Shown here piece after piece: positions 5,257 to 63,265 of a DNA stretch of 64,000 nucleotides. The translations under genes were made by a program, and so were the position numbers. The notes below the pieces were generated by a model. That model was given only the letters and a program-made list of their open reading frames with translations, was not told where the DNA came from and did not search any database. The stretch's first letter is position 1. Each line of letters opens with the position of its first letter. Source of the stretch: an uncultured Candidatus Saccharibacteria bacterium (GTDB taxonomy: Bacteria; Patescibacteriota; Minisyncoccia; Phycocordibacterales; UBA5272); NCBI GenBank assembly GCA_964512315.1, contig CAZEIK010000003.1:22548-86547 (forward strand). The letters run 5' to 3'.

Positions 5257-5688
5257 ATGTCATTTGTTTTTGACCCTAGGATTAACCCCACTGCACCACT
5301 GGACCCAAATGACCCAGCACCAACTCACTGGGTCGATATCGAAACCTCAGACTATCGTGCCGCTCTGTTTGGTTTCGCTAGTGAAACCTTCGAAGGGTGT
5401 TCCAGGTGGGAGGTGCGTGAGTTGCGCCGTTGGCGTGCACTAAACCCTAAAACGCTCGAAGGCTTCACTACTAACACACTCTGGGAATCGATACCTGGAA
5501 TGGGTGGTAGCCTGAATAATCTAGAGTTGGTTGATGTCCAACAAGAACCTTTCTATGATGAAGACGGTGCATCTTTGCGCCTGATGCTGTATTTCGTGAC
5601 AAGCGAGTACGGTAAGCTGATCAAGATTCCTGCATTTGGCTTCAGGACGAAGTATCGCGAAAAAGAAAAACCGGATATTGTGTCTTAG
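5257..5688 (+). CDS. Orphan 143-aa protein in the same foreign cassette.
   Basis: Ribosome-binding site AAGGAG-N7-ATG, about 50% GC. Its stop overlaps the sufB stop in convergent orientation. Confidence 0.5.
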   Translation: MSFVFDPRINPTAPLDPNDPAPTHWVDIETSDYRAALFGFASETFEGCSRWEVRELRRWRALNPKTLEGFTTNTLWESIPGMGGSLNNLELVDVQQEPFYDEDGASLRLMLYFVTSEYGKLIKIPAFGFRTKYREKEKPDIVS

Positions 5689-7007
5689 CTCATCTCTAGC
5701 TCGACGAGTCTATTGAACTCGACGGCGTATTCTAGGGGAAGTGCACGGATGATGTCTCCGACGAATCCGCCCACTATGATGCGATAAGCGTTATCCTTGC
5801 TGAATCCGTGCCCCATGAGGTAGTGCAGCTCCTCATCACCTATCTTGCCGACAGTCGCCTCATGTGTGACGTCGGCATTTTTATTTTGTATTTTATTCAT
5901 CGGCCAAGTATTAGATACTGACTTATTATCAAGAATTAGTGCGTCACAACCAACAAATGACTTGGTATTCTCGGCTGACTTACCAACTTGAACAAAGCCG
6001 CGATAATTAGACACCCCACCATCCTTGGACACACTTTTGCTTCTTATTATTGATCTCGTATTTTTACCCAGATGTATTACTTTACTTCCTGTATCTTGAT
6101 CTTGATTCTCTCCTGCGAATACTATACCCATAGACTCACTACGACTGTAGTCGCCAAGTAGTACTGATGTTGGATATAACATAGTCACAGCAGACCCCAT
6201 GTTACCGTTCACCCAATTGATCTCACCATTTTTATAGACCAAAGCCTTCTTGGTGTTGAGGTTATAAGTGTTCTTGCTCCAATTCTCAACGCTGATGTAT
6301 TTTGCTTTTGCATTTTCCATTACTATAACTTCAACGCATCCAGCGTGTAGGCTACTAGCTGTGTATTTTGGTGCACTGCAACCTTCTATGTATTCAACAG
6401 TTGCGCCATTTTCTACAATTATCAAAGTGTGTTCAAATTGTCCTGCACTAGGAGCATTCATGCGAAAGTAGGCTTGTAACGGCATTGTAACTTTTACACC
6501 CTCTGGAACATATATAAAAGTCCCACCACTCCATACAGCGCCATGCAATGCTGTAAAAGTGTGATCCTTGGCTGGCACACAGTCAGTCATGAAATATTTC
6601 TTAACCAGGTCAGGATACTTTTGTACAGCCACATCCATGTTCTCAAATATAACTCCTTGCTTAGCTAATGTGTCTTTGATTCTGTGATATACAACACCTG
6701 AGTCATACTGCGCACCTACACCACCCAGGTACTCCCTTTCAGCTTTTGGTATACCAAGCTTTTCAAATGTATCAGTTATCTCTTGGGGCAGCTCTGCCCA
6801 ACTTTTCTTTTCGTCTACAGACGGGTCAATGTAATAGTTAATTTTGTCTAATTCTAATTTAGATAGATCCGGCCCCCAAGTGGGAATTTTGGAAGACTCA
6901 AAAATAGCAAGAGCCTCTAATCTCTTTTGTAGCATCCACTCAGGCTCATTTTTTGAAGTGCTGATTTTCCTTACTAGCTCCTCAGTGATAATTCCTTTTA
7001 AAGGCAT
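5685..7007 (-). CDS. sufB: Fe-S cluster assembly protein SufB.
   Basis: 440 aa with high similarity to SufB along its full length. The 3' about 200 nt are unusually GC-rich (about 55%). Confidence 0.9.
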   Translation of the reverse strand: MPLKGIITEELVRKISTSKNEPEWMLQKRLEALAIFESSKIPTWGPDLSKLELDKINYYIDPSVDEKKSWAELPQEITDTFEKLGIPKAEREYLGGVGAQYDSGVVYHRIKDTLAKQGVIFENMDVAVQKYPDLVKKYFMTDCVPAKDHTFTALHGAVWSGGTFIYVPEGVKVTMPLQAYFRMNAPSAGQFEHTLIIVENGATVEYIEGCSAPKYTASSLHAGCVEVIVMENAKAKYISVENWSKNTYNLNTKKALVYKNGEINWVNGNMGSAVTMLYPTSVLLGDYSRSESMGIVFAGENQDQDTGSKVIHLGKNTRSIIRSKSVSKDGGVSNYRGFVQVGKSAENTKSFVGCDALILDNKSVSNTWPMNKIQNKNADVTHEATVGKIGDEELHYLMGHGFSKDNAYRIIVGGFVGDIIRALPLEYAVEFNRLVELEMS

Positions 7008-16919: not shown

Positions 16920-17309
16920 TTAATCTTCGTCTCCGTCTTTAAAAAGCGAAAGTCCCCAATTAACTACAGATAAGACAACGCCAAATATTATAGCTGTCCA
17001 AAATGAATTAATTGAGAACCCCACTAAAACATAGTCCACAATCTTTATCATCAAACCATTAATAACAATTGAGAAAAGTCCAAGAGTTAATATGTTAATT
17101 GGTAAAGATATAACCTGAACTAATGGCTTAATAAGTGCGTTAACTATAGCTAATAACAAAGTTACCAACCCAAGTGTGACAAAATAATTACCACTAATAT
17201 CGGCTCCTGGCAATAAATAAACAGTAATAGCAACGGCTATTGCTGACAAAATAAAGTTTCTTATCATACCCTTCCAGTATACTACTCCTACAAAAAAGTA
17301 AATAGACAC
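16920..17309 (-). CDS. Phage-holin-family-4-like (PF04020-like) small membrane protein.
   Basis: 129 aa. Motif LLPG...LV.ALI.PL....SLP.N.LTLGLFS.VIN.LM, typical of that family. Confidence 0.55.
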   Translation of the reverse strand: MSIYFFVGVVYWKGMIRNFILSAIAVAITVYLLPGADISGNYFVTLGLVTLLLAIVNALIKPLVQVISLPINILTLGLFSIVINGLMIKIVDYVLVGFSINSFWTAIIFGVVLSVVNWGLSLFKDGDED

Positions 17310-18706
17310 TATTTTAGACCTAACTCTCTCTTTTGTTTGTCTGATATCTCGCTAGGAGCATTCATCATTAGGTCTTTACCTTCGCCAGTTTTGGCAAAAG
17401 CAATAACTTCACGAATATTTGGCTCATTTTCCATTAACATCATGAGTCTATCGAATCCCCAGGCTATACCGCCATGTGGTGGAGCACCAAATTTCATAGC
17501 TTCTATCATATGGCCGAACATCTTTTCTATTTTCTCAGAATCATACCCCATGATCTCAAAAGTGGTCCTTAATGCATCCGGGTTATAATTACGCAAACTT
17601 CCTCCTCCTATTTCAAAACCATTTAAAGTTATATCGTATTGGGTTGTTAATATATCTCCTATATTTTTCTTAGACAGAAAGTCATTCATAGAGTCTTCGC
17701 GAGGTTTTGAAAAAGGATTGTGTGTAAAAGTCCACTCCCCTGTGCCGTCAACATTGTCTTCTCCAGTTTTCTCAAACATCGGGAAATCAACAACCCATAA
17801 AAAGGCTAATAAATTAGGATCATTTTTGTCTTCTCTTATGTCCGGTCTGTCGTTACCGTATTTTTCCATAGCCTCTTTATAAGACATTCTTGGGAAAGGT
17901 ATCTGTTGTATTCTCTTTTCTGGATAAAATTTCTTAACAACTTCAATAAGCAAATTCTCATTTAAATTAATAATATCCTCCTCTGAAGCAAAACTTAACT
18001 CCATGTCGAGTTGGGTAAATTCAGGCTGACGATCACCACGAGTGTCCTCATCACGCATACAACGAGCGAATTGAAAATATCTCTCTAAGCCAGCAACCAT
18101 AAGTAGCTGTTTGTATTGTTGAGGTGATTGAGGTAGTGAATAAAAATTACCTTTCCACACTCTACTTGGAACTACATAACTACGCGAACCTTCTGGTGTT
18201 GGTGCAGACATAAGAGGTGTCTCAACCTCGACAAAGTTATTGTCTATCAAATAATTTCTAATGTATTGCTGCACAAGAGAACGATTCTTCATCGTTTTGT
18301 TAAGTCTCTCTCTTCTTAAGTCTAAATATCTATACTTTAATCTTACTTCTTCATTAACTTCCTTACCATCCGTAGTTAAGTCAAATGGTGGAGTGTTAGA
18401 TTCATTCAAAACTTTTATGCCTAAAACTTCTAACTCTATGTCCCCATTTAAAACCCCCACTTTAATATTTTTTTCAGGCCTCTTGTTTACTTTTGCAACA
18501 ACCTCTATACACCATTCTGTTCTAAGAGTTCCACCTACAGCCAGGGCTTCTACGTGATTAGGAAGGATTACGGCTTGCACAACACCAGTAGTGTCACGCA
18601 AGTCCAAGAATATCATCTTACCTTGATCGCGACGAACTTTAACCCAAACATTCACAATGACTTCTTCATTAACTTTAGAAGACAGATCTTTTACAAGAGT
18701 ACGCAT
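17309..18706 (-). CDS. aspS: Aspartyl-tRNA synthetase, bacterial type, lacking the GAD insertion domain.
   Basis: Class II motifs, FARCMRDEDTRGDRQPEFTQLD (AspRS signature). The DRPD...WVVDFPMFE junction shows deletion of the GAD domain. 465 aa. Confidence 0.85.
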   Translation of the reverse strand: MRTLVKDLSSKVNEEVIVNVWVKVRRDQGKMIFLDLRDTTGVVQAVILPNHVEALAVGGTLRTEWCIEVVAKVNKRPEKNIKVGVLNGDIELEVLGIKVLNESNTPPFDLTTDGKEVNEEVRLKYRYLDLRRERLNKTMKNRSLVQQYIRNYLIDNNFVEVETPLMSAPTPEGSRSYVVPSRVWKGNFYSLPQSPQQYKQLLMVAGLERYFQFARCMRDEDTRGDRQPEFTQLDMELSFASEEDIINLNENLLIEVVKKFYPEKRIQQIPFPRMSYKEAMEKYGNDRPDIREDKNDPNLLAFLWVVDFPMFEKTGEDNVDGTGEWTFTHNPFSKPREDSMNDFLSKKNIGDILTTQYDITLNGFEIGGGSLRNYNPDALRTTFEIMGYDSEKIEKMFGHMIEAMKFGAPPHGGIAWGFDRLMMLMENEPNIREVIAFAKTGEGKDLMMNAPSEISDKQKRELGLK

Positions 18707-18744
18707 AGTTATTACACTATAACAAAAATATTCAATATATACAA

Positions 18745-18885
18745 AATAGGACGCCCCCAGGAAGACTAATGTCTAACTGGGGGCGAAGGTGTGTGCCTTA
18801 GGAGAATTTGTCGGGGCATTGCGCCTCGACCTACAAGACACTCGGTGCGATGAGCGAAACCGCAACGAGATCTAGATTTATTATC
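18745..18885 (-). ncRNA. Candidate structured RNA / leader (GC-rich, about 55%) ending in an intrinsic terminator just upstream of aspS.
   Basis: Isolated GC-rich non-coding block. Minus-strand hairpin cgcccccag-N16-ctgggggcg followed by a U-tract. No family identified. Confidence 0.3.
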
Positions 18886-18897
18886 TAAATTTTAAGT

Positions 18898-19893
18898 CTA
18901 GCTGTCAAGGCCAATGACTTTTCTAACTTCTTGCATTTTCTGCTGTGCAACAAGTCTCACTCTCTTACCGTTCTCCTCAAGTAGAGTATTTAATTTGTCA
19001 GGATTAGCTAGAAGCTCATTATACTTTTCAACCTTACCCTCTCTCCAAGTCAGTATTGTGTTATAGAGGTCGTCTTTTGCCTCTTTGTAACCATAACCAC
19101 CATTTTCAAATTTTGCACGAAGGGTTGCAACTTCATCCTGATTCAAGAAATGTTTATGTATATTAAAAATATTATTAGTGTCTGGATCTTTTTTATCTGC
19201 TGGTGCTGCTGAATCAGTAACAATACTCATGACAGCCTTCTTCACCTCTTCATCTGACCCAAAGAGTGGTATTACATTCCCTTTACTTTTGCTCATTTTC
19301 TGTCCATCAACGCCAGGTATAGTGCCAACATTTTCAACAGTATAATCTTTTGGTAATTTGAAAACTTCTTCATTCCAAGCTCTGTTGAAAAAACCAGCAA
19401 TGTCGCGAGCGTACTCAACATGTTGCTTTTGATCTGCTCCAACAGGAACAATGTCAGCATTATAAATTAAAATATCCGCAGCCATAAGTACCGGATAATC
19501 GAACAAGCCCACATTCACTTCTTTGTTCTTAGCTTCATGATCTTTAAATGCATGCGCGCGCATAAGATAAGGCATAGTAACTATATTGTTCAATATTACA
19601 CAAAGCTCAGCATGCTCAGGTATACTAGACTGTTTAAATATAAATTCAGGGTTAAGTCCACAAGCTATATAAGCTGCCGCTATTTCAAGTGTTGAAGCTT
19701 TGATTGCATTTTTATCTTTTACTGTAGTTAACGCATGATAGTCAGCTATAAAAATATAAGGCGAGTGCTCATCATTATTCGCTAAGTCTATATTTTGCTT
19801 TAATGCACCAAAATAATTACCAAAATGTAATTTGCCGCTCGCTTGCACTCCAGAGACCAAAACTTTTTTACTCATAGGAATATTATAACACAA
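18898..19893 (-). CDS. trpS: Tryptophanyl-tRNA synthetase.
   Basis: 331 aa, HIGH-like GKLHFGNY, KMSKS. Confidence 0.9.
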   Translation of the reverse strand: MCYNIPMSKKVLVSGVQASGKLHFGNYFGALKQNIDLANNDEHSPYIFIADYHALTTVKDKNAIKASTLEIAAAYIACGLNPEFIFKQSSIPEHAELCVILNNIVTMPYLMRAHAFKDHEAKNKEVNVGLFDYPVLMAADILIYNADIVPVGADQKQHVEYARDIAGFFNRAWNEEVFKLPKDYTVENVGTIPGVDGQKMSKSKGNVIPLFGSDEEVKKAVMSIVTDSAAPADKKDPDTNNIFNIHKHFLNQDEVATLRAKFENGGYGYKEAKDDLYNTILTWREGKVEKYNELLANPDKLNTLLEENGKRVRLVAQQKMQEVRKVIGLDS

Positions 19894-19896
19894 AAC

Positions 19897-19928
19897 AAAA
19901 TGACCCTTGTGGGGGTCATTTTGTTTTG
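19897..19928 (-). terminator. Intrinsic terminator.
   Basis: aaatgaccc-ttgtg-ggggtcattt with flanking T/A tracts. Confidence 0.65.
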
Positions 19929-19937
19929 TGTTAAGTC

Positions 19938-21083
19938 TTATTGAGCTTTGGTCTCAGTAGAACTCTTAGCTGACTCTATCGCTTTTAATGCAGCAGAAAT
20001 CTCTGCATTATTAGGAAGTCTTACATTAAGCTCCTTAAGAACTAACTCCTCTTGATCTTTTAATCCTATCATCTTGTAAATGTTGTACAGGTACATTAGA
20101 GGCAAATTGTTAGAAGAGTCATAATTGAATGCAGCTTGAGCATTTAATGTCATTCTAGAGACAACGTCAGCAACTTCTTCTGGAGAAGATGAAGCGGACA
20201 TGCTTTGTAACCTGGCTAAATCAATATCAACTAATCCTAAGTAATAAACATCAAATGGTGCAACTCCTATCGCTTTGTTAAGATTATCTTCTGCTACTTG
20301 TAGATCGCGATTACCTGCAGCTACATAAGCTTTTACATAATATGTACCAGCAACTACACGGAATCCGTTGTGAATAACCCAACCCAAAGCCAAACAGAAC
20401 AATACTACAAGAGTAACTCTGTTAACCAGCGAAACACTTTTTACAGTAAAATTCTTAGCTTCAAATATAAATCCTAGAGCAATACCTAGAAGCGCTGCTG
20501 CTGCGTACCAGAACGGATATTGATATATGCTGTTAAATGATACTATCGGCTTAACAAAATAAGCAACATACTCTGACAAAGCTGACACGCTCCTAGAAAG
20601 AGCTGCGAATAAATAAGGTACCCCTAATGCTACGAGAGAAGCAACTAACATTACCATTCTAGAGTTACCTCTCAGAACTGACGCCAGATAAACAACTGGT
20701 GCAAGGCTTAATATTGCAGCAATACTAACCGGAGCAACACCTTTACCAAATATAACAAAAGATAAAGGTAGATTAGTTTCTGCAACATACGCTACATATG
20801 CGACAACAGCCAGAACTAATGTGCTAACCAAAAGTAACATATTACCAGCTACTTCTTTGCCTCTAAAGCTGTTATACATTAGAGAAGTAACTACAATTAG
20901 AAATGTAATACTAGCGACACAAATTGTAATTGCCCAGTGAGGGAAAACATTTTGCGGCAAGAAGAAACTAGTAAACATCAATGGTGTTACTGCGAATAAA
21001 TAAATGAATAAATTTGATAAAGAAAAATTATTAGACTTAGTAACTTTAGCTTTCATGTTTATAAATTGTAACACGCTAAGCAA
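19938..21083 (-). CDS. Polytopic membrane protein with a C-terminal TPR-like region.
   Basis: 381 aa, about 9 TM helices, then a helical-repeat tail. Confidence 0.5.
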   Translation of the reverse strand: MLSVLQFINMKAKVTKSNNFSLSNLFIYLFAVTPLMFTSFFLPQNVFPHWAITICVASITFLIVVTSLMYNSFRGKEVAGNMLLLVSTLVLAVVAYVAYVAETNLPLSFVIFGKGVAPVSIAAILSLAPVVYLASVLRGNSRMVMLVASLVALGVPYLFAALSRSVSALSEYVAYFVKPIVSFNSIYQYPFWYAAAALLGIALGFIFEAKNFTVKSVSLVNRVTLVVLFCLALGWVIHNGFRVVAGTYYVKAYVAAGNRDLQVAEDNLNKAIGVAPFDVYYLGLVDIDLARLQSMSASSSPEEVADVVSRMTLNAQAAFNYDSSNNLPLMYLYNIYKMIGLKDQEELVLKELNVRLPNNAEISAALKAIESAKSSTETKAQ

Positions 21084-26192: not shown

Positions 26193-26230
26193 AGCGGCAA
26201 AATTATAACACTAATTTTAATAAATTTCAA

Positions 26231-31169: not shown

Positions 31170-31330
31170 AATAAATTAAGTGTATCAAAGTGTATGACTC
31201 AACGCCAGAAACTTTTCCTTAATAAAAAAGAGACCGCATTGCTGCAGTCTCAAGAGGTTGTGTGTACTGCGGTGGATAAGTCCGCATAATCCAAGTTAAT
31301 TATAAATTTAATAAAATTCAAAAGCAAGTC

Positions 31331-33226
31331 CTACTCCAACACTGCCTTGATACGGCGTACACCTTGGGAGACGGCTTCTTCTTTTGTGATTTTGAATGTT
31401 CCCATGTTGCCAGTTGACTCCACATGTGGACCACCACAGAACTCAAGAGAAAAGTCGCCCACATGATACACGCTAACTGTCTCGCCATATTTGTTATCGA
31501 ACACTCCTATCGCACCCATTTCGCGAGCCTTCTCATATGGAACCTCTTCGCGAGTAACAATTAAATTCTTCTTAATGTTTTCATTTACAATATCTTCAAC
31601 TTTCTTAATCTCATCAGGCGTCATTTTGCCATCATGTGAGAAGTCGAATCGCAATCTCTCGCTAGTGATATTACTGCCCTTTTGATATACATGATCACCC
31701 AGGACCTGACGCAACGCCTCATGCAACATATGTGTTGCTGTGTGGTATTTTGTCTCCATCTCTCCGTCACCACCTAGTCCACCTTTGAATTTACCCACAC
31801 TTGCAGTGCGAGAGGCTTCAGAGTGTTGTTGTTTTAATACTTTAAACCCCTCTGTATCAACTTTTAATCCTTTCTCTTTAGCTAACTCTTCTGTTAACTC
31901 TATTGGGAATCCAAAACTTTGTAAAAGATTGAATGCATCATTAGCATTTATGTTTGCGCTCGATATTTTCTCAAACTCTTTTAAGCCATTCTCTATAGTT
32001 TTTCTGAACTTTGTCTCTTCTTGATCTATGGCGGATTTGATCTCATCTTTCTTTTCAGAAAGGTCTTTGTACTCAGCAGAATAAACATCTATAAAAGTCT
32101 GGGCAACGCGAGCTGTAAAGTTCTCATTAATATTTAACTTCTTTGCAAATCTAACTGCGCGACGAATCAGACGGCGCACGAAATACTGCTGATCTTTGTT
32201 ACCTGGCATCACATCATCACCAATCAAAAATGTTGCTGCACGCAAGTGGTCTAGTATTACTCTGTAGGCATAGACATTGTCACCTTCGTATTTTTGTTTT
32301 GAAATCTCTTCTATAATATTCTTAGCCTCTCCGAATACATCTATATTAAATACATCCGGGTCATCGTTAAGTGCAGCTACAATACGCTCAAGACCTCCTC
32401 CAAAGTCAACATTCTTTTGTTTCAACTCCTCCACACCATCTTCTGTGCGCATATATTGCATGAATACATTGTTGCCAATCTCAACGAATCTACCACAATC
32501 ACAATTAACATGACATGGCTCACTAGCCCACTGACTATTCTTGTGCAAGACTTTTTCTTTATCATGTTCAAAATCATAGAACATCTCAGTATCTGGTCCT
32601 CCTGGCTCACCAACTGGCATATTCTCCGGCACTCCAGCGCGACTCCACCAATTCTTCTTATCAGGGAAGCAGAATATCCTCTCACCATCACGCATACCGT
32701 CCACTTCTGATGTAACGCCAACATTTGCAGTTATTCCTAATGCTGCAAATTTCTCTTGCCATTTAGTGATAGCCACCTCATCGCGACCTATGCCGAGCGA
32801 CTCATTGCCACGATAAACAGTAAAATATAATCTGTTCGGATCTAATTTGATCTTATTAACCAAAAAGTCCCACATTATATCAATCTGTCCCTCTTTAAAG
32901 AAGTCACCGAGTGACCAATTACCGAGCATTTCAAAAAATGTTGTGTGGCGATTGTCTCCTACCTCTTCTATATCTTGTGAACGAAAGCATTTCTGACTGT
33001 CTGCAATACGAGACCCTAACGGATGAGGTTGACCCAGGAGATAAGGCAACATTGGCTGCATACCTGAACCGGTAAATAGTGTTGTCGGGTCATTGTCTGG
33101 AACTAGCTTAGACGAAGCGATTATGGCATGACCATTTTCTTTCATGTGTGTCAGGAATTGCTCGCGCACCAGATTGGTTGTAACTTTATTCATATTTAAA
33201 ATATAACACAAAAGACTATTCCACAA
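31331..33226 (-). CDS. alaS: Alanyl-tRNA synthetase, short form lacking the C-terminal C-Ala domain.
   Basis: Class II catalytic core (FTGSGMQP), editing domain HxxxH/CxxxH (HTATHMLH...CGGPHV). 631 aa. Confidence 0.9.
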   Translation of the reverse strand: MWNSLLCYILNMNKVTTNLVREQFLTHMKENGHAIIASSKLVPDNDPTTLFTGSGMQPMLPYLLGQPHPLGSRIADSQKCFRSQDIEEVGDNRHTTFFEMLGNWSLGDFFKEGQIDIMWDFLVNKIKLDPNRLYFTVYRGNESLGIGRDEVAITKWQEKFAALGITANVGVTSEVDGMRDGERIFCFPDKKNWWSRAGVPENMPVGEPGGPDTEMFYDFEHDKEKVLHKNSQWASEPCHVNCDCGRFVEIGNNVFMQYMRTEDGVEELKQKNVDFGGGLERIVAALNDDPDVFNIDVFGEAKNIIEEISKQKYEGDNVYAYRVILDHLRAATFLIGDDVMPGNKDQQYFVRRLIRRAVRFAKKLNINENFTARVAQTFIDVYSAEYKDLSEKKDEIKSAIDQEETKFRKTIENGLKEFEKISSANINANDAFNLLQSFGFPIELTEELAKEKGLKVDTEGFKVLKQQHSEASRTASVGKFKGGLGGDGEMETKYHTATHMLHEALRQVLGDHVYQKGSNITSERLRFDFSHDGKMTPDEIKKVEDIVNENIKKNLIVTREEVPYEKAREMGAIGVFDNKYGETVSVYHVGDFSLEFCGGPHVESTGNMGTFKITKEEAVSQGVRRIKAVLE

Positions 33227-45894: not shown

Positions 45895-45948
45895 TTGACA
45901 ATATTCAAATAAAAAAGTATTATTAGAGTCAGAAAGGAGGGCCTAACT

Positions 45949-46191
45949 ATGCCCCGTACTACCGTAACAAACGAACAGGTTCGAGGTTTTGTAAGCGCAA
46001 TCAACCGGGTTAATCCGAATGTACCGCAAGAAAAAGCGGTCCACCGGATCACCCTTATTGTCAGGAGGGTCCCAAGTTACCTGCTCAAGAGTTTCTTGCA
46101 TGCAGGTATCCCGGCCATCAAAGTTCAAGCGTACGCAACAACGGCCGAAATCATGGCCCAAATGCGAACAGACGCAGTAACGCTCCACTAA
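45949..46191 (+). CDS. Orphan 80-aa protein in a compositionally foreign cassette.
   Basis: Upstream TTGACA-17nt-TATTAT promoter-like element, ribosome-binding site AAAGGAGGG. About 50% GC. The terminator hairpin is embedded in the 3' end of dnaX. Confidence 0.5.
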   Translation: MPRTTVTNEQVRGFVSAINRVNPNVPQEKAVHRITLIVRRVPSYLLKSFLHAGIPAIKVQAYATTAEIMAQMRTDAVTLH

Positions 46192-47165
46192 CCCTCGATC
46201 ACCGCTCCTAACGCCGCCATCAGTGCGGCGTTCTTGTTTTTAGAATATTCAAAAACTGGCTTCTTCTCTAAAAGGAATAACAAATTCTTAGAAGTAAATA
46301 CCGCCTCATGCGCCATAACAAAATCTGAGAATTCAATATCTTCTTCCCCGCTTACCTTTTGCCTTATTAACATACCCTTACGTATAGCTTCTAGCATCTC
46401 ATCATAGAAGCCCGCTCCAACTTCGGCTTTGTCTATATCAGAAAAAAGCTTCTTAATATCTTTGTTATGGACATCTGCCAGGAGATTGTTAATCACTTCT
46501 CTGTCGCCCAAGCGGAACAAACTCTTAATGTCTTCGTATTTAATATTATTACCCAAAGTGTGAAAGACTGTCTCTAGGTTAGACAATGCATCGCGATATG
46601 AGTTGTTACTTTTGCTTGCTAACAAGTCAGCTGACTCATCATCAATTTTAATACCTTCACCTTTTGCTACTTTTAATATTTGTTCAACAAGTGTGTCGCG
46701 GGTGGCTTTTTTGAATTCTATTATCTGAGAGCGCGAGCGAATAGTTGGCAGCAACTTGTCAGCATCAGTAGTACAAAGTATAAAAATAATATGCTTAGGC
46801 GGCTCCTCCAAAGTCTTAAGCAATGCATTGCTGGCCTCCTTGGTTAACATGTGTGCCTCGTCTAATATGTAGACTTTGTATTTTGAATACACCGGCAGCG
46901 TGTGTATTGCTTCACGCAAATCACGAGCCTCATCTATGCCACGATTACTCGCAGCGTCCAATTCAAAAACATCAGCCGGATCAGTACCTAACTCACGAGC
47001 GAACAATCTAGCTAATGTGGTCTTACCTATACCATGCCCACCGCAAAATATATAAGAGTGAGGGATATTTTCTGTTTTACTTATTGAAAGTAGTGTTGCA
47101 ACCGCTGCTTTTTGCCCTATGACTTCGTCAAAGCTATTCGGTCTCCATTTTCGATAAAAACTCAT
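46188..47165 (-). CDS. dnaX: DNA polymerase III subunit gamma/tau, short form.
   Basis: RPNSFDEVIGQ, Walker A GGHGIGKTT, DEAH box. The C-terminal 14 aa are encoded by the GC-rich hairpin sequence. Confidence 0.8.
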   Translation of the reverse strand: MSFYRKWRPNSFDEVIGQKAAVATLLSISKTENIPHSYIFCGGHGIGKTTLARLFARELGTDPADVFELDAASNRGIDEARDLREAIHTLPVYSKYKVYILDEAHMLTKEASNALLKTLEEPPKHIIFILCTTDADKLLPTIRSRSQIIEFKKATRDTLVEQILKVAKGEGIKIDDESADLLASKSNNSYRDALSNLETVFHTLGNNIKYEDIKSLFRLGDREVINNLLADVHNKDIKKLFSDIDKAEVGAGFYDEMLEAIRKGMLIRQKVSGEEDIEFSDFVMAHEAVFTSKNLLFLLEKKPVFEYSKNKNAALMAALGAVIEG

Positions 47166-62097: not shown

Positions 62098-62233
62098 ATT
62101 TAGATTGTAGCATTAAAAATTGCTAATATAACTAGTTTAAATATTTGACACCTATAAAAGTAAGTTGTATAGTGATATTTAAATTTTGAGTTCGCTCAAA
62201 ACAGATCTTTCAACCACCCGAGGAGATACGTTA

Positions 62234-63090: not shown

Positions 63091-63128
63091 AGGTGTGTAA
63101 TGTAAACATTCTAACATAAAAACAAAAA

Positions 63129-63147
63129 ACTTCTAGTGCCCCCAGTA
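63129..63147 (-). repeat. 19-nt copy of the tRNA-Lys 3' end (T-loop / acceptor 3' strand). att-site-like direct repeat.
   Basis: gtgcccccagtaggattcg is identical to 63264-63282. Confidence 0.7.
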
Positions 63148-63265
63148 GGATTCGGTCACAAAACATATTCCGCTAACGCTTCATTGTTTCGCGACCCCGT
63201 ATTCGGATCCTAACAAAAAGATATTTCGATATCTTTTTTCTGTGTTCACAATTTTTACAAAATTG

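What the first reader, a model, noticed from the sequence alone, without database searches (positions are those of the whole stretch)
18745..18885. Isolated GC-rich structured element between trpS and aspS
A 140-nt non-coding block of about 55% GC lies in an otherwise AT-rich intergenic region. On the minus strand it ends with the hairpin cgcccccag...ctgggggcg followed by a U-tract, 30 nt upstream of the aspS start. The layout resembles a cis-regulatory leader or attenuator for an aminoacyl-tRNA synthetase, or a small RNA, but it lacks T-box consensus sequence and is too short for one. An AATATTCAA motif shared with cassette boundaries abuts it.
Basis: seen in the sequence. Interest (0 to 1): 0.55.

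Follow-up and report, generated by a model that had tools for sequence, protein, structure and literature searches.

The report
Clade-specific small RNA after trpS
The GC-rich block between trpS and aspS is a real structured RNA element of about 130 nt, seen in only two closely related lineages of an uncultured Patescibacteria bacterium; it most likely is a small RNA that shares the trpS terminator rather than a control switch for aspS, and its function is unknown.

Summary
A non-coding block (core 18752-18873, 57% GC in a 38% GC genome) lies between trpS and aspS. It folds far better than shuffles and ends on the minus strand in the hairpin CGCCCCCAG/CUGGGGGCG plus a U-rich tail.

It matches no Rfam family and is not a T-box. 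The same Rfam model does recognise the T-box leaders that many related Paceibacteria carry before aspS.

The element occurs only in the window's own lineage and one sister lineage (AspS 87% identical). Fourfold sites between them are near saturation (44% identity). Even so, a 15-nt block (AAGGCACACACCUUC), a loop motif (UUUCGC) and both main stems are kept, and the stems carry compensatory changes. G·U pairs favour the minus strand.

The attenuator reading is disfavoured. A promoter typical of this genome (TGTTATAGT, 9 nt before the ATG) lies between the hairpin and aspS. No conserved antiterminator exists. Among relatives, 0 of 13 T-box-led aspS genes have such a proximal promoter.

Best reading: an orphan small RNA of the 3'-UTR type. 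It has its own TTGACA-17-GATAAT promoter overlapping the trpS stop and shares the trpS terminator. Evidence rests on two lineages and no transcript data. Interest is modest.

The parts
18903..18908 (-). -35-like hexamer TTGACA of the putative promoter of the element (P-el). It lies in the last codons (Leu-Asp) of trpS.
   Evidence: Consensus scan gives 11 of 12 with 17-nt spacing. It is one of only four sites scoring >=11/12 in the 64-kb window, and the other three also lie upstream of genes. It is conserved in L082/L084, but coding constraint could explain that.
18880..18885 (-). -10 hexamer GATAAT of P-el (GACAAT in the sister lineage, same 17-nt spacing). The predicted start is A18873, the first base of hairpin P1.
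   Evidence: In both lineages an A lies 7 nt after the -10, at the base of P1 or one base before it (read from the sequences).
18836..18873 (-). Hairpin P1. The lower stem is AGAUCUCG/CGAG(U)GUCU. The apical stem is window-specific. The loop UUCGCUC (18852-18858) carries the conserved motif UUUCGC.
   Evidence: Folds at -14.2 kcal/mol; the sister lineage folds the equivalent GAGCUCGAC/GUCGAGCUU at -13.4. The stem is kept with changed pairs, and U·G/G·U pairs are valid only on the minus strand. UUUCGC is invariant.
18810..18830 (-). Window-lineage-specific extra hairpin GUCGAGGCGCAAUGCCCCGAC. This variable region is replaced by an unrelated 13-22 nt linker in L082/L084.
   Evidence: Alignments A1/A3. 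Folds at -10.6 kcal/mol. Present unchanged in strain variant L133.
18785..18805 (-). Conserved block UCUCC-(1-4 nt)-AAGGCACACACCUUC. The last 15 nt are invariant. It can form a 4-bp mini-hairpin AAGG/CCUU with loop CACACA stacked on the terminator.
   Evidence: 15 of 15 identical between lineages whose fourfold sites are 41-45% identical. Mini-hairpin predicted in all three sequences.
18752..18785 (-). Terminator hairpin P3 (9-bp outer stem, inner 4-bp stem). It is shared by the element and, by position, by trpS.
   Evidence: -25.5 kcal/mol. Of 9 outer pairs, 3 changed on both sides and 1 changed to U·G in the sister lineage, and all remain paired. The U·G would be a C·A mismatch on the plus strand.
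18740..18751 (-). U-rich tail UCCUAUUUUGUA. It overlaps the -35-like TTGTAT of the aspS promoter.
   Evidence: The same layout (hairpin, UUUUGU, promoter) occurs at other genes of the window.
18716..18744 (-). aspS promoter (P-asp): TTGTAT (18739-18744), 17-nt spacer, extended -10 TGT-TATAGT (18716-18724), then 9 nt to the ATG at 18706. This implies an almost leaderless aspS mRNA. It is not part of the element but is decisive for its interpretation.
   Evidence: 18 of 51 genes in the window have TGnTAnnnT ending 6-12 nt before the ATG, and only 2 of 51 have an SD. The region is invariant in L082/L084 apart from a 1-nt deletion. The analogous TGCTATACT + 9 nt + ATGCGTA occurs in L113, which has no element.
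18898..19893 (-). trpS (likely true start ATG 19875). It has no terminator of its own between its stop (18898-18900) and P3.
   Evidence: In relatives L113/L116, trpS is followed directly by its own terminator.
17309..18706 (-). aspS (465 aa, bacterial type without the GAD insertion).

Best explanation
The block encodes a discrete structured RNA of about 120-135 nt, transcribed in the same direction as trpS and aspS (window minus strand).

Anatomy, from 5' to 3':
- a 5' hairpin (P1) whose loop carries UUUCGC;
- a variable linker, which holds an extra hairpin in this lineage;
- a conserved block UCUCC...AAGGCACACACCUUC;
- a strong hairpin with a U-rich tail.

I propose it is made in two ways. 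One is as a primary transcript from its own sigma-70-type promoter (TTGACA-17-GATAAT), which overlaps the trpS stop codon and would start at about 18873. The other is as the 3' end of the trpS mRNA, because trpS has no other terminator. This is the layout of a 'type I' 3'-UTR small RNA.

The terminal hairpin ends both transcripts and shields the aspS promoter that follows it. aspS is then expressed as a nearly leaderless mRNA from that promoter, and the element does not control it by attenuation.

The conserved exposed blocks (UUUCGC loop, UCUCC, CACACA) are the likely contact surface for a trans partner, either RNA or protein.

Shown: the structure-compatible conservation, the strand, the absence of T-box and Rfam membership, and the position of the promoter motifs. 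Inferred: that transcripts exist with these ends, and that the RNA acts in trans. The partner is unknown.
For: - Folding: z about -5.
- Distribution: conserved in the sister lineage L082/L083/L084 (AspS 87% identical).
- Neutral baseline: fourfold sites are 44-45% identical in aspS and 41% in trpS, so neutral sites are almost saturated. Yet AAGGCACACACCUUC is 15 of 15 identical and UUUCGC is kept.
- P3 stem: 3 pairs changed on both sides and 1 wobble change, all still paired. The P1 lower stem is kept with different pairs. The G·U pairs are valid only on the minus strand.
- Coding: stops and frame-breaking indels in all six frames.
- Promoter of the element: 11 of 12 match placed so that +1 is the first base of P1. 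Spacing and placement are the same in the sister lineage (+1 one base before its P1 stem). The other three sites in the window scoring >=11/12 all precede genes, two of them leadered and SD-bearing.
- aspS has its own genome-typical promoter downstream of the hairpin. Such a promoter is absent from all 13 T-box-led aspS loci and present in 13 of 37 others.
- Spacer length: trpS-aspS is 191 nt; neighbouring spacers are about 20-65 nt, the range depending on start-codon choice (ORF coordinates). Relatives L113/L116 place the trpS terminator right after the stop. The element is therefore an insertion between a gene and its terminator.
- No conserved antiterminator.
Against: - There are effectively only two independent lineages, plus one near-identical strain, L133. 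The covariation is a handful of events, and terminator stems in this genome evolve by compensation anyway.
- No transcript data.
- The proposed promoter lacks the TG-extended -10 that tRNA and protein genes of this genome use. Its -35 lies in coding sequence, so its conservation is not independent evidence.
- Sites scoring >=11/12 are no more frequent in the window than in shuffles (4 against 3.0 +/- 1.7).
- No convincing target was found for the conserved blocks among 77 gene starts; the best duplexes are only about 2.4 sd from the mean.
- The element is missing from all other relatives examined, so if it has a function that function is dispensable or recent.
Confidence: 0.5

Rival explanations
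1. Structured 3' UTR of trpS only. The element has no promoter of its own and no trans function. It is the extended 3' end of the trpS mRNA, for example protecting it from 3' exonucleases or binding a protein that sets trpS mRNA stability. The hairpin is simply the trpS terminator.
For: trpS has no other terminator before P3. The hairpin + UUUUGU + promoter layout is the genome's standard gene boundary. The putative promoter is atypical for this genome, and its -35 is constrained by coding. Sites scoring 11/12 are at chance frequency.
Against: Other genes in the window, and trpS in relatives, make do with a hairpin directly after the stop. A 15-nt invariant block and a conserved loop motif are more than a stability hairpin needs. 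The -10 and its spacing to both the -35 and the base of P1 are kept in non-coding sequence in both lineages.
Confidence: 0.25
2. Cis-regulatory leader or attenuator of aspS. Transcription from the upstream promoter, or from trpS, pauses or terminates at the hairpin unless a signal such as tRNA-Asp, AspRS or a metabolite allows readthrough into aspS. It would functionally replace the T-box used by relatives.
For: It occupies the same position and orientation as the T-box leaders found before aspS in 19 of 80 related species and in L112. It ends in a hairpin with a U-run whose 5-nt offset might make termination leaky. A conserved block directly abuts the terminator. Internal SD-less starts are evidently translatable in these organisms: genes after T-box terminators have no SD.
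Against: - An extended -10 promoter of the genome's dominant leaderless type lies between hairpin and ATG. This arrangement is seen in 0 of 13 T-box-led loci.
- No upstream segment complementary to the 5' arm of the terminator exists in the sister lineage. The terminator arms changed sequence without any third covarying segment.
- There is no specifier-like or anticodon-like loop conserved between lineages.
- AspS relatives at 78-85% identity have no leader at all.
Confidence: 0.15
3. Decaying relic of an ancestral aspS T-box leader, or other filler, plus a working terminator. It would have no present function beyond termination.
For: T-box leaders before aspS are widespread but patchy in the group, so losses have occurred. 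The terminator begins with CGCCCC, as T-box terminators of relatives do. The middle of the element is variable and indel-rich.
Against: The Rfam T-box model scores relatives' leaders at 30-47 bits but finds nothing here, even at E<=10 on 216 nt. blastn and nhmmer find no similarity to any of the 80 related aspS loci. Invariant blocks persist against near-saturated neutral sites. P1 is maintained with changed pairs.
Confidence: 0.07

Closest known systems
Type I 3'-UTR-derived small RNAs of enterobacteria (e.g. DapZ, MicL). This comparison is from my own knowledge of the literature, not from a search here.
   Same: The promoter is embedded in the end of the upstream coding sequence. The small RNA shares the intrinsic terminator of that mRNA. 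Size is about 100-150 nt, with a 5' stem-loop, a conserved single-stranded block and a terminator hairpin.
   Different: There is no sequence or Rfam relationship. The organism is a reduced-genome Patescibacteria bacterium with SD-less, mostly leaderless mRNAs. The usual seed-versus-ribosome-binding-site logic therefore cannot apply as such. No target, chaperone or transcript is known.
T-box leaders upstream of aspS in related Paceibacteria (Rfam RF00230, sub-threshold)
   Same: Same genomic slot and orientation (directly upstream of aspS, sometimes downstream of trpS as in L112). GC-rich structured RNA ending in a terminator whose 5' arm begins CGCCCC.
   Different: The element has no Stem I with a GAC/AAC specifier, no GGUGGNACCGCG box and no antiterminator. 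The Rfam model that scores relatives at 30-47 bits finds nothing here. A promoter lies between terminator and ATG here, which never occurs in the T-box loci.
Ordinary intrinsic terminators of this genome (e.g. 19882-19937 upstream of trpS)
   Same: A hairpin whose stem evolves by compensatory change, followed by UUUUGU and immediately by the next gene's extended -10 promoter.
   Different: Those hairpins start right after the stop codon. Here about 110 nt of conserved structured RNA is interposed, and the U-run is offset by 5 nt.

Membership tests
T-box leader (RF00230) | Stem I with a specifier codon for the cognate amino acid (GAC/GAU, or AAC for a non-discriminating AspRS) presented in a loop | tested here: not met
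   Relatives show ...UGA..(GAC|AAC)A..GA.. Stem I hairpins. In the element the only GAC-A lies in the stem of the window-specific insertion and is absent from L082.
T-box leader (RF00230) | T-box sequence with the UGGN bulge (GGUGGNACCGCG) that pairs with the tRNA 3' end | tested here: not met
   Absent on direct reading. No RF00230 hit at E<=1 in 3.5 kb or E<=10 in 216 nt. The same model gives 30-47 bits (E 1e-7 to 3e-3) on relatives' leaders.
T-box leader (RF00230) | Antiterminator helix mutually exclusive with the terminator | tested here: not met
   No upstream segment of >=5 nt complementary to the 5' arm in L082/L084, and only CGAGG/CUUCG in the window. The arms changed without a third covarying segment.
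T-box leader / transcription attenuator in general | Lies in the 5' UTR of the regulated gene, with no promoter between terminator and start codon | tested here: not met
   TGTTATAGT lies 9 nt before the ATG, the genome's dominant promoter type (18 of 51 genes). A proximal extended -10 occurs in 0 of 13 T-box loci against 13 of 37 others. Promoter activity itself was not measured.
Any curated Rfam 15 family | Covariance-model score at or above the gathering threshold | tested here: not met
   The whole window at gathering gives only 4 tRNAs. E-value mode gives nothing in the element at E<=1. On the short region only noise at <=15 bits.
Intrinsic (Rho-independent) terminator | Stable GC-rich hairpin followed by a U-run at the end of a transcription unit | tested here: met
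   -25.5 kcal/mol hairpin with tail UCCUAUUUUGU. The structure is preserved by 3 double changes and 1 wobble change. It occupies the standard position before the next promoter. Caveat: the U-run is offset by 5 nt and the consensus scan did not call it.
3'-UTR-derived small RNA with its own promoter (type I) | Promoter within or overlapping the end of the upstream coding sequence | tested here: inconclusive
   TTGACA-17-GATAAT at 18908-18880, scoring 11 of 12, conserved as TTGACA-17-GACAAT. It is a consensus match only, atypical for this genome, and no TSS data exist.
3'-UTR-derived small RNA with its own promoter (type I) | Shares the terminator of the upstream mRNA | tested here: met
   No terminator-like hairpin with a U-run lies between the trpS stop (18898) and P3. 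Relatives without the element have the terminator right after the stop.
3'-UTR-derived small RNA with its own promoter (type I) | Conserved seed that base-pairs with target mRNAs | tested here: inconclusive
   Conserved exposed blocks exist. A duplex search against 77 gene starts of the window gave no outlier. Most of the genome is not available.
3'-UTR-derived small RNA with its own promoter (type I) | A discrete stable transcript of the predicted size | not testable with these tools
   No expression data are accessible here.

The most novel reading that the evidence does not exclude
The element is a new kind of synthetase-linked riboregulator that has taken over from the T-box in this small Paceibacteria clade. 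An RNA made next to trpS and aspS would report tRNA or amino-acid status through its conserved UUUCGC loop and UCUCC/CACACACC block. It would act in a genome whose mRNAs are leaderless, where classical 5'-UTR control is not available. It could do this by controlling readthrough into aspS, or by acting in trans on the 5' ends of leaderless mRNAs.
Probability: 0.07. Interest if true: 0.65.

Novelty: new member of a known kind. Interest (0 to 1): 0.3.

Why it matters
Regulatory RNAs are almost unexplored in Patescibacteria (CPR), which have tiny genomes and cannot be grown alone. This genome uses almost no Shine-Dalgarno sites and mostly leaderless mRNAs. A conserved, independently terminated small RNA here would therefore be a useful handle on how riboregulation works without 5' leaders.

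As it stands, the element is an orphan candidate with a very narrow distribution, so its immediate value is modest.

The comparison also shows that aspS in this group switches between two forms: T-box-led and promoter-proximal (leaderless). The T-box leaders involved fall well below the Rfam threshold.

Tried and rejected
- Known RNA family: three Rfam searches found nothing in the element. ARAGORN found no tRNA or tmRNA there.
- T-box, including a degenerate one: rejected by motif reading, by the differential Rfam result, by the lack of an antiterminator, and by the absence of blastn/nhmmer similarity to 80 related aspS loci.
- Small protein or leader peptide: stops and non-triplet indels in all frames. 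The 17-codon minus-strand and 27-codon plus-strand ORFs of the window are not conserved.
- Repeat or mobile element ('foreign filler'): no second copy in the window. No similarity in phage or plasmid collections apart from one chance 25-nt match.
- Wider family by pattern: AAGGCACACACCTTCNCCC in the metagenome collection gave 20 hits. The variant with R at the degenerate position gave 16 hits in the viral collection. The metagenome hits were inspected and lie in unrelated sequence contexts (two recurring, apparently coding families and scattered singletons). The metagenome collection did not return the JGI contig of L084, which contains the pattern. It is therefore incomplete, and absence elsewhere is not proven.
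- Synteny walk: AspS relatives at 83-85% and 78% identity, and TrpS relatives at 74%, lack the element.
- AATATTCAA as a boundary motif: contexts are heterogeneous and it is not conserved in the sister lineage.
- tRNA mimicry: the 11-nt complementarity to tRNA-Leu(UAG) is at chance level (E 1.8) and not conserved in L084. Anticodon-loop-like strings (CUGUCAC in L084 only; CUCCACA in L084 against CUCCUAA elsewhere) are not conserved (read).
- Target prediction for the conserved blocks: no outlier.
- Literature searches for CPR T-boxes or leaderless CPR genomes gave nothing specific to this element.

Full report
**What is there.**
The window comes from a Patescibacteria (Paceibacteria-like) genome of 38% GC. 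The closest public genomes are uncultured Paceibacterota/Parcubacteria MAGs.
- ORF 17309-18706(-) is a bacterial-type aspartyl-tRNA synthetase lacking the GAD insertion.
- ORF 18898-19893(-) is tryptophanyl-tRNA synthetase.
- Both strands fold much better than dinucleotide shuffles (z about -5).
- On the minus strand the block ends in the hairpin CGCCCCCAG...CUGGGGGCG (18785-18752, -25.5 kcal/mol), followed by UCCUAUUUUGU.

**Not a known family.**
- Rfam 15 finds only four tRNAs in the window at gathering thresholds.
- It finds nothing in the element at E<=1.
- It finds only noise when the 216-nt region is searched alone.
- ARAGORN finds nothing there.
- All six frames carry stops, and no ORF is conserved in the sister lineage.
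- There is no second copy in the window and no similarity in phage or plasmid collections.

**Relatives.**
A genome scan with AspS returned 80 species at 62-74% identity. None has a sequence similar to the element near aspS.
- Unexpectedly, 19 of them, and also L112, carry a T-box leader directly upstream of aspS. These leaders have an ultrashort Stem I presenting GAC or AAC, the box GGGUGGCACCGCG, and a terminator beginning CGCCCC.
- Rfam's T-box model scores these leaders at 30-47 bits (E 1e-7 to 3e-3). That is below its threshold of 93 but clearly above noise.
- The same model finds nothing in the window. The negative result is therefore meaningful: the element is not a T-box.

Closer relatives were reached through protein clusters.
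- L081 is the same sequence as the window.
- L133 is a strain variant (trpS 97.5% identical in DNA). It has five substitutions in the element, all at its 5' edge or in a linker.
- L082/L083 and L084 (AspS 87% identical) keep the trpS-aspS order and the element.
- AspS relatives at 85%, 84%, 83% and 78% identity have other neighbours upstream, with short spacers holding only a promoter.
- TrpS relatives at 74% have either a terminator right after trpS and an unrelated 450-nt spacer (L113-L116) or a T-box (L112).
- A pattern scan of the metagenome collection for the invariant 15-mer plus NCCC returned only unrelated sequence contexts, and that collection is demonstrably incomplete. A viral scan returned 16 hits that were not inspected.

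The element is therefore known from two lineages only.

**Is it under selection?**
Between the two lineages, fourfold-degenerate sites are 44-45% identical in aspS and 41% in trpS, which is close to saturation. Against that background:
- AAGGCACACACCUUC is 15 of 15 identical.
- UUUCGC in the P1 loop and UCUCC are kept.
- The middle of the element is replaced by unrelated sequence with indels.
- The outer stem of the terminal hairpin differs at four of nine pairs. Three changed on both sides and one changed to U·G, and all remain paired.
- The lower stem of P1 is also maintained with different pairs.
- The U·G and G·U pairs would be C·A mismatches on the plus strand, so the minus strand is the RNA strand.

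Two caveats apply. These are few events from two lineages. Also, the ordinary terminator upstream of trpS shows the same behaviour, with a fully compensated stem and invariant flanks. The hairpin's covariation therefore proves only that it is a functional hairpin. The evidence for 'more than a terminator' is the invariant 15-mer, the loop motif and P1.

**Why it is probably not an aspS leader.**
- The genome has almost no Shine-Dalgarno sites (2 of 51 genes).
- In 18 of 51 genes an extended -10 box (TGnTAnnnT) ends 6-12 nt before the ATG. This is the signature of leaderless mRNAs, and tRNA genes use the same promoter type.
- The standard gene boundary is hairpin, UUUUGU, TGTGTTATAAT, then 6-9 nt to the ATG.
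- aspS fits this layout exactly. TGTTATAGT (18724-18716) lies 9 nt before the ATG, downstream of the hairpin, and the region is invariant in the sister lineage.
- L113, which has no element, shows the same TGCTATACT + 9 nt + ATGCGTA.
- Among relatives whose start could be fixed, a proximal extended -10 occurs in 0 of 13 T-box-led aspS loci and in 13 of 37 others. aspS here belongs to the promoter-proximal class.
- No upstream segment can pair with the 5' arm of the terminator in the sister lineage, and the arms changed without a third covarying partner. There is therefore no antiterminator.

**What it most likely is.**
- A TTGACA-17-GATAAT match (11 of 12) overlaps the trpS stop codon. It places +1 at A18873, the first base of P1.
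- The sister lineage has TTGACA-17-GACAAT with the same geometry (+1 one base before its P1 stem).
- Only four sites in the window reach 11 of 12. That is no more than chance (3.0 +/- 1.7). The other three all precede genes, however, and two of those genes are the rare leadered, SD-bearing kind.
- trpS has no terminator of its own before the element, unlike trpS in relatives.
- The trpS-aspS spacer exceeds neighbouring spacers by about the length of the element.

The simplest model is an RNA of about 130 nt produced from its own promoter, also present as the 3' end of trpS mRNA, and sharing that terminator. This is the architecture of type I 3'-UTR small RNAs such as DapZ or MicL (that comparison is from my own knowledge). 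The hairpin also insulates the aspS promoter.

The function of the RNA is not established. I infer a trans-acting role through the conserved exposed blocks. A duplex search against the 77 gene starts in the window gave no outlier.

**Confidence in each reading.**
- Small RNA of the 3'-UTR type: 0.5.
- Purely cis-acting structured trpS 3' UTR: 0.25.
- Attenuator of aspS: 0.15.
- Functionless relic: 0.07.

**Verdict.**
The element is real, structured, on the minus strand, conserved but clade-restricted, and absent from Rfam. It is most likely an orphan small RNA or 3'-UTR element rather than a synthetase leader. It is a new member of a known kind and of modest interest until transcripts or more genomes are available.

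Noticed in passing
L019, L021, L024, L029, L032, L035, L039, L048, L049, L053-L055, L059, L069-L071, L074, L075, L077 (upstream of aspS, about 80-250 nt before the match start) and L112:3706-3870: Many related Paceibacteria regulate aspS with a T-box leader. It has an ultrashort Stem I hairpin carrying a GAC (Asp) or AAC (Asn) specifier. The Asn specifier suggests a non-discriminating AspRS. The Rfam T-box model scores them only 30-47 bits against a threshold of 93, so standard annotation misses them.
   Followed up: partly
window, genome-wide (e.g. 19876-19900, 21057-21080, 31194-31215, 33173-33195 on the minus strand): Only 2 of 51 genes have a Shine-Dalgarno-like sequence. 18 of 51 have an extended -10 box TGnTAnnnT ending 6-12 nt before the ATG, so leaderless mRNAs appear to be the rule. 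tRNA genes use the same TGTGTTATAAT-type promoter.
   Followed up: partly
window 45895-45923 (+) and 62145-62173 (+); also 26202-26230 (-): These are the only other sites in the window scoring >=11/12 against TTGACA/TATAAT. The sites at 45895 and 62145 precede leadered transcripts with AAGGAGG/GAGGAG ribosome-binding sites. The site at 45895 is followed by a GC-rich stretch (45993-46250) that has no long ORF.
   Followed up: no
window 2917, 8007, 10987, 18727, 29347, 36831, 45900, 46244, 58984: AATATTCAA occurs 9 times against 1.85 expected by shuffling. The flanks have nothing in common and most copies lie in coding sequence. The copy next to the element sits in the aspS promoter spacer and is not conserved in the sister lineage.
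   Followed up: partly
window 6823-6900 (+): ARAGORN calls a tRNA-Pyl with anticodon CUA inside ORF 5685-7007(-). The Rfam tRNA model does not confirm it, so it is probably a false positive.
   Followed up: partly
window 63091-63264 (-): A 174-nt spacer between tRNA-Lys and tRNA-Leu contains GC-rich segments (GGGGUCGCGAAAC..., CUACUGGGGGCACUAG) and an internal promoter-like TATGTTAGAAT. It was not analysed.
   Followed up: no
window 19882-19937: A long perfect hairpin flanked by an A-run and a U-run acts as the terminator before the trpS promoter. In E-value mode Rfam reports it as several plant and animal microRNA families, which are spurious hits. Its stem is completely replaced by compensatory changes in L084, while the flanks are invariant.
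   Followed up: yes
L133:1373-1517 vs window 18760-18897: A strain variant (trpS 97.5% identical in DNA) carries five substitutions in the element. TC->GG occurs at the predicted transcript start (18875-18876). Three more lie in the linker between P1 and the extra hairpin. None lies in the conserved blocks or the inner stems.
   Followed up: partly
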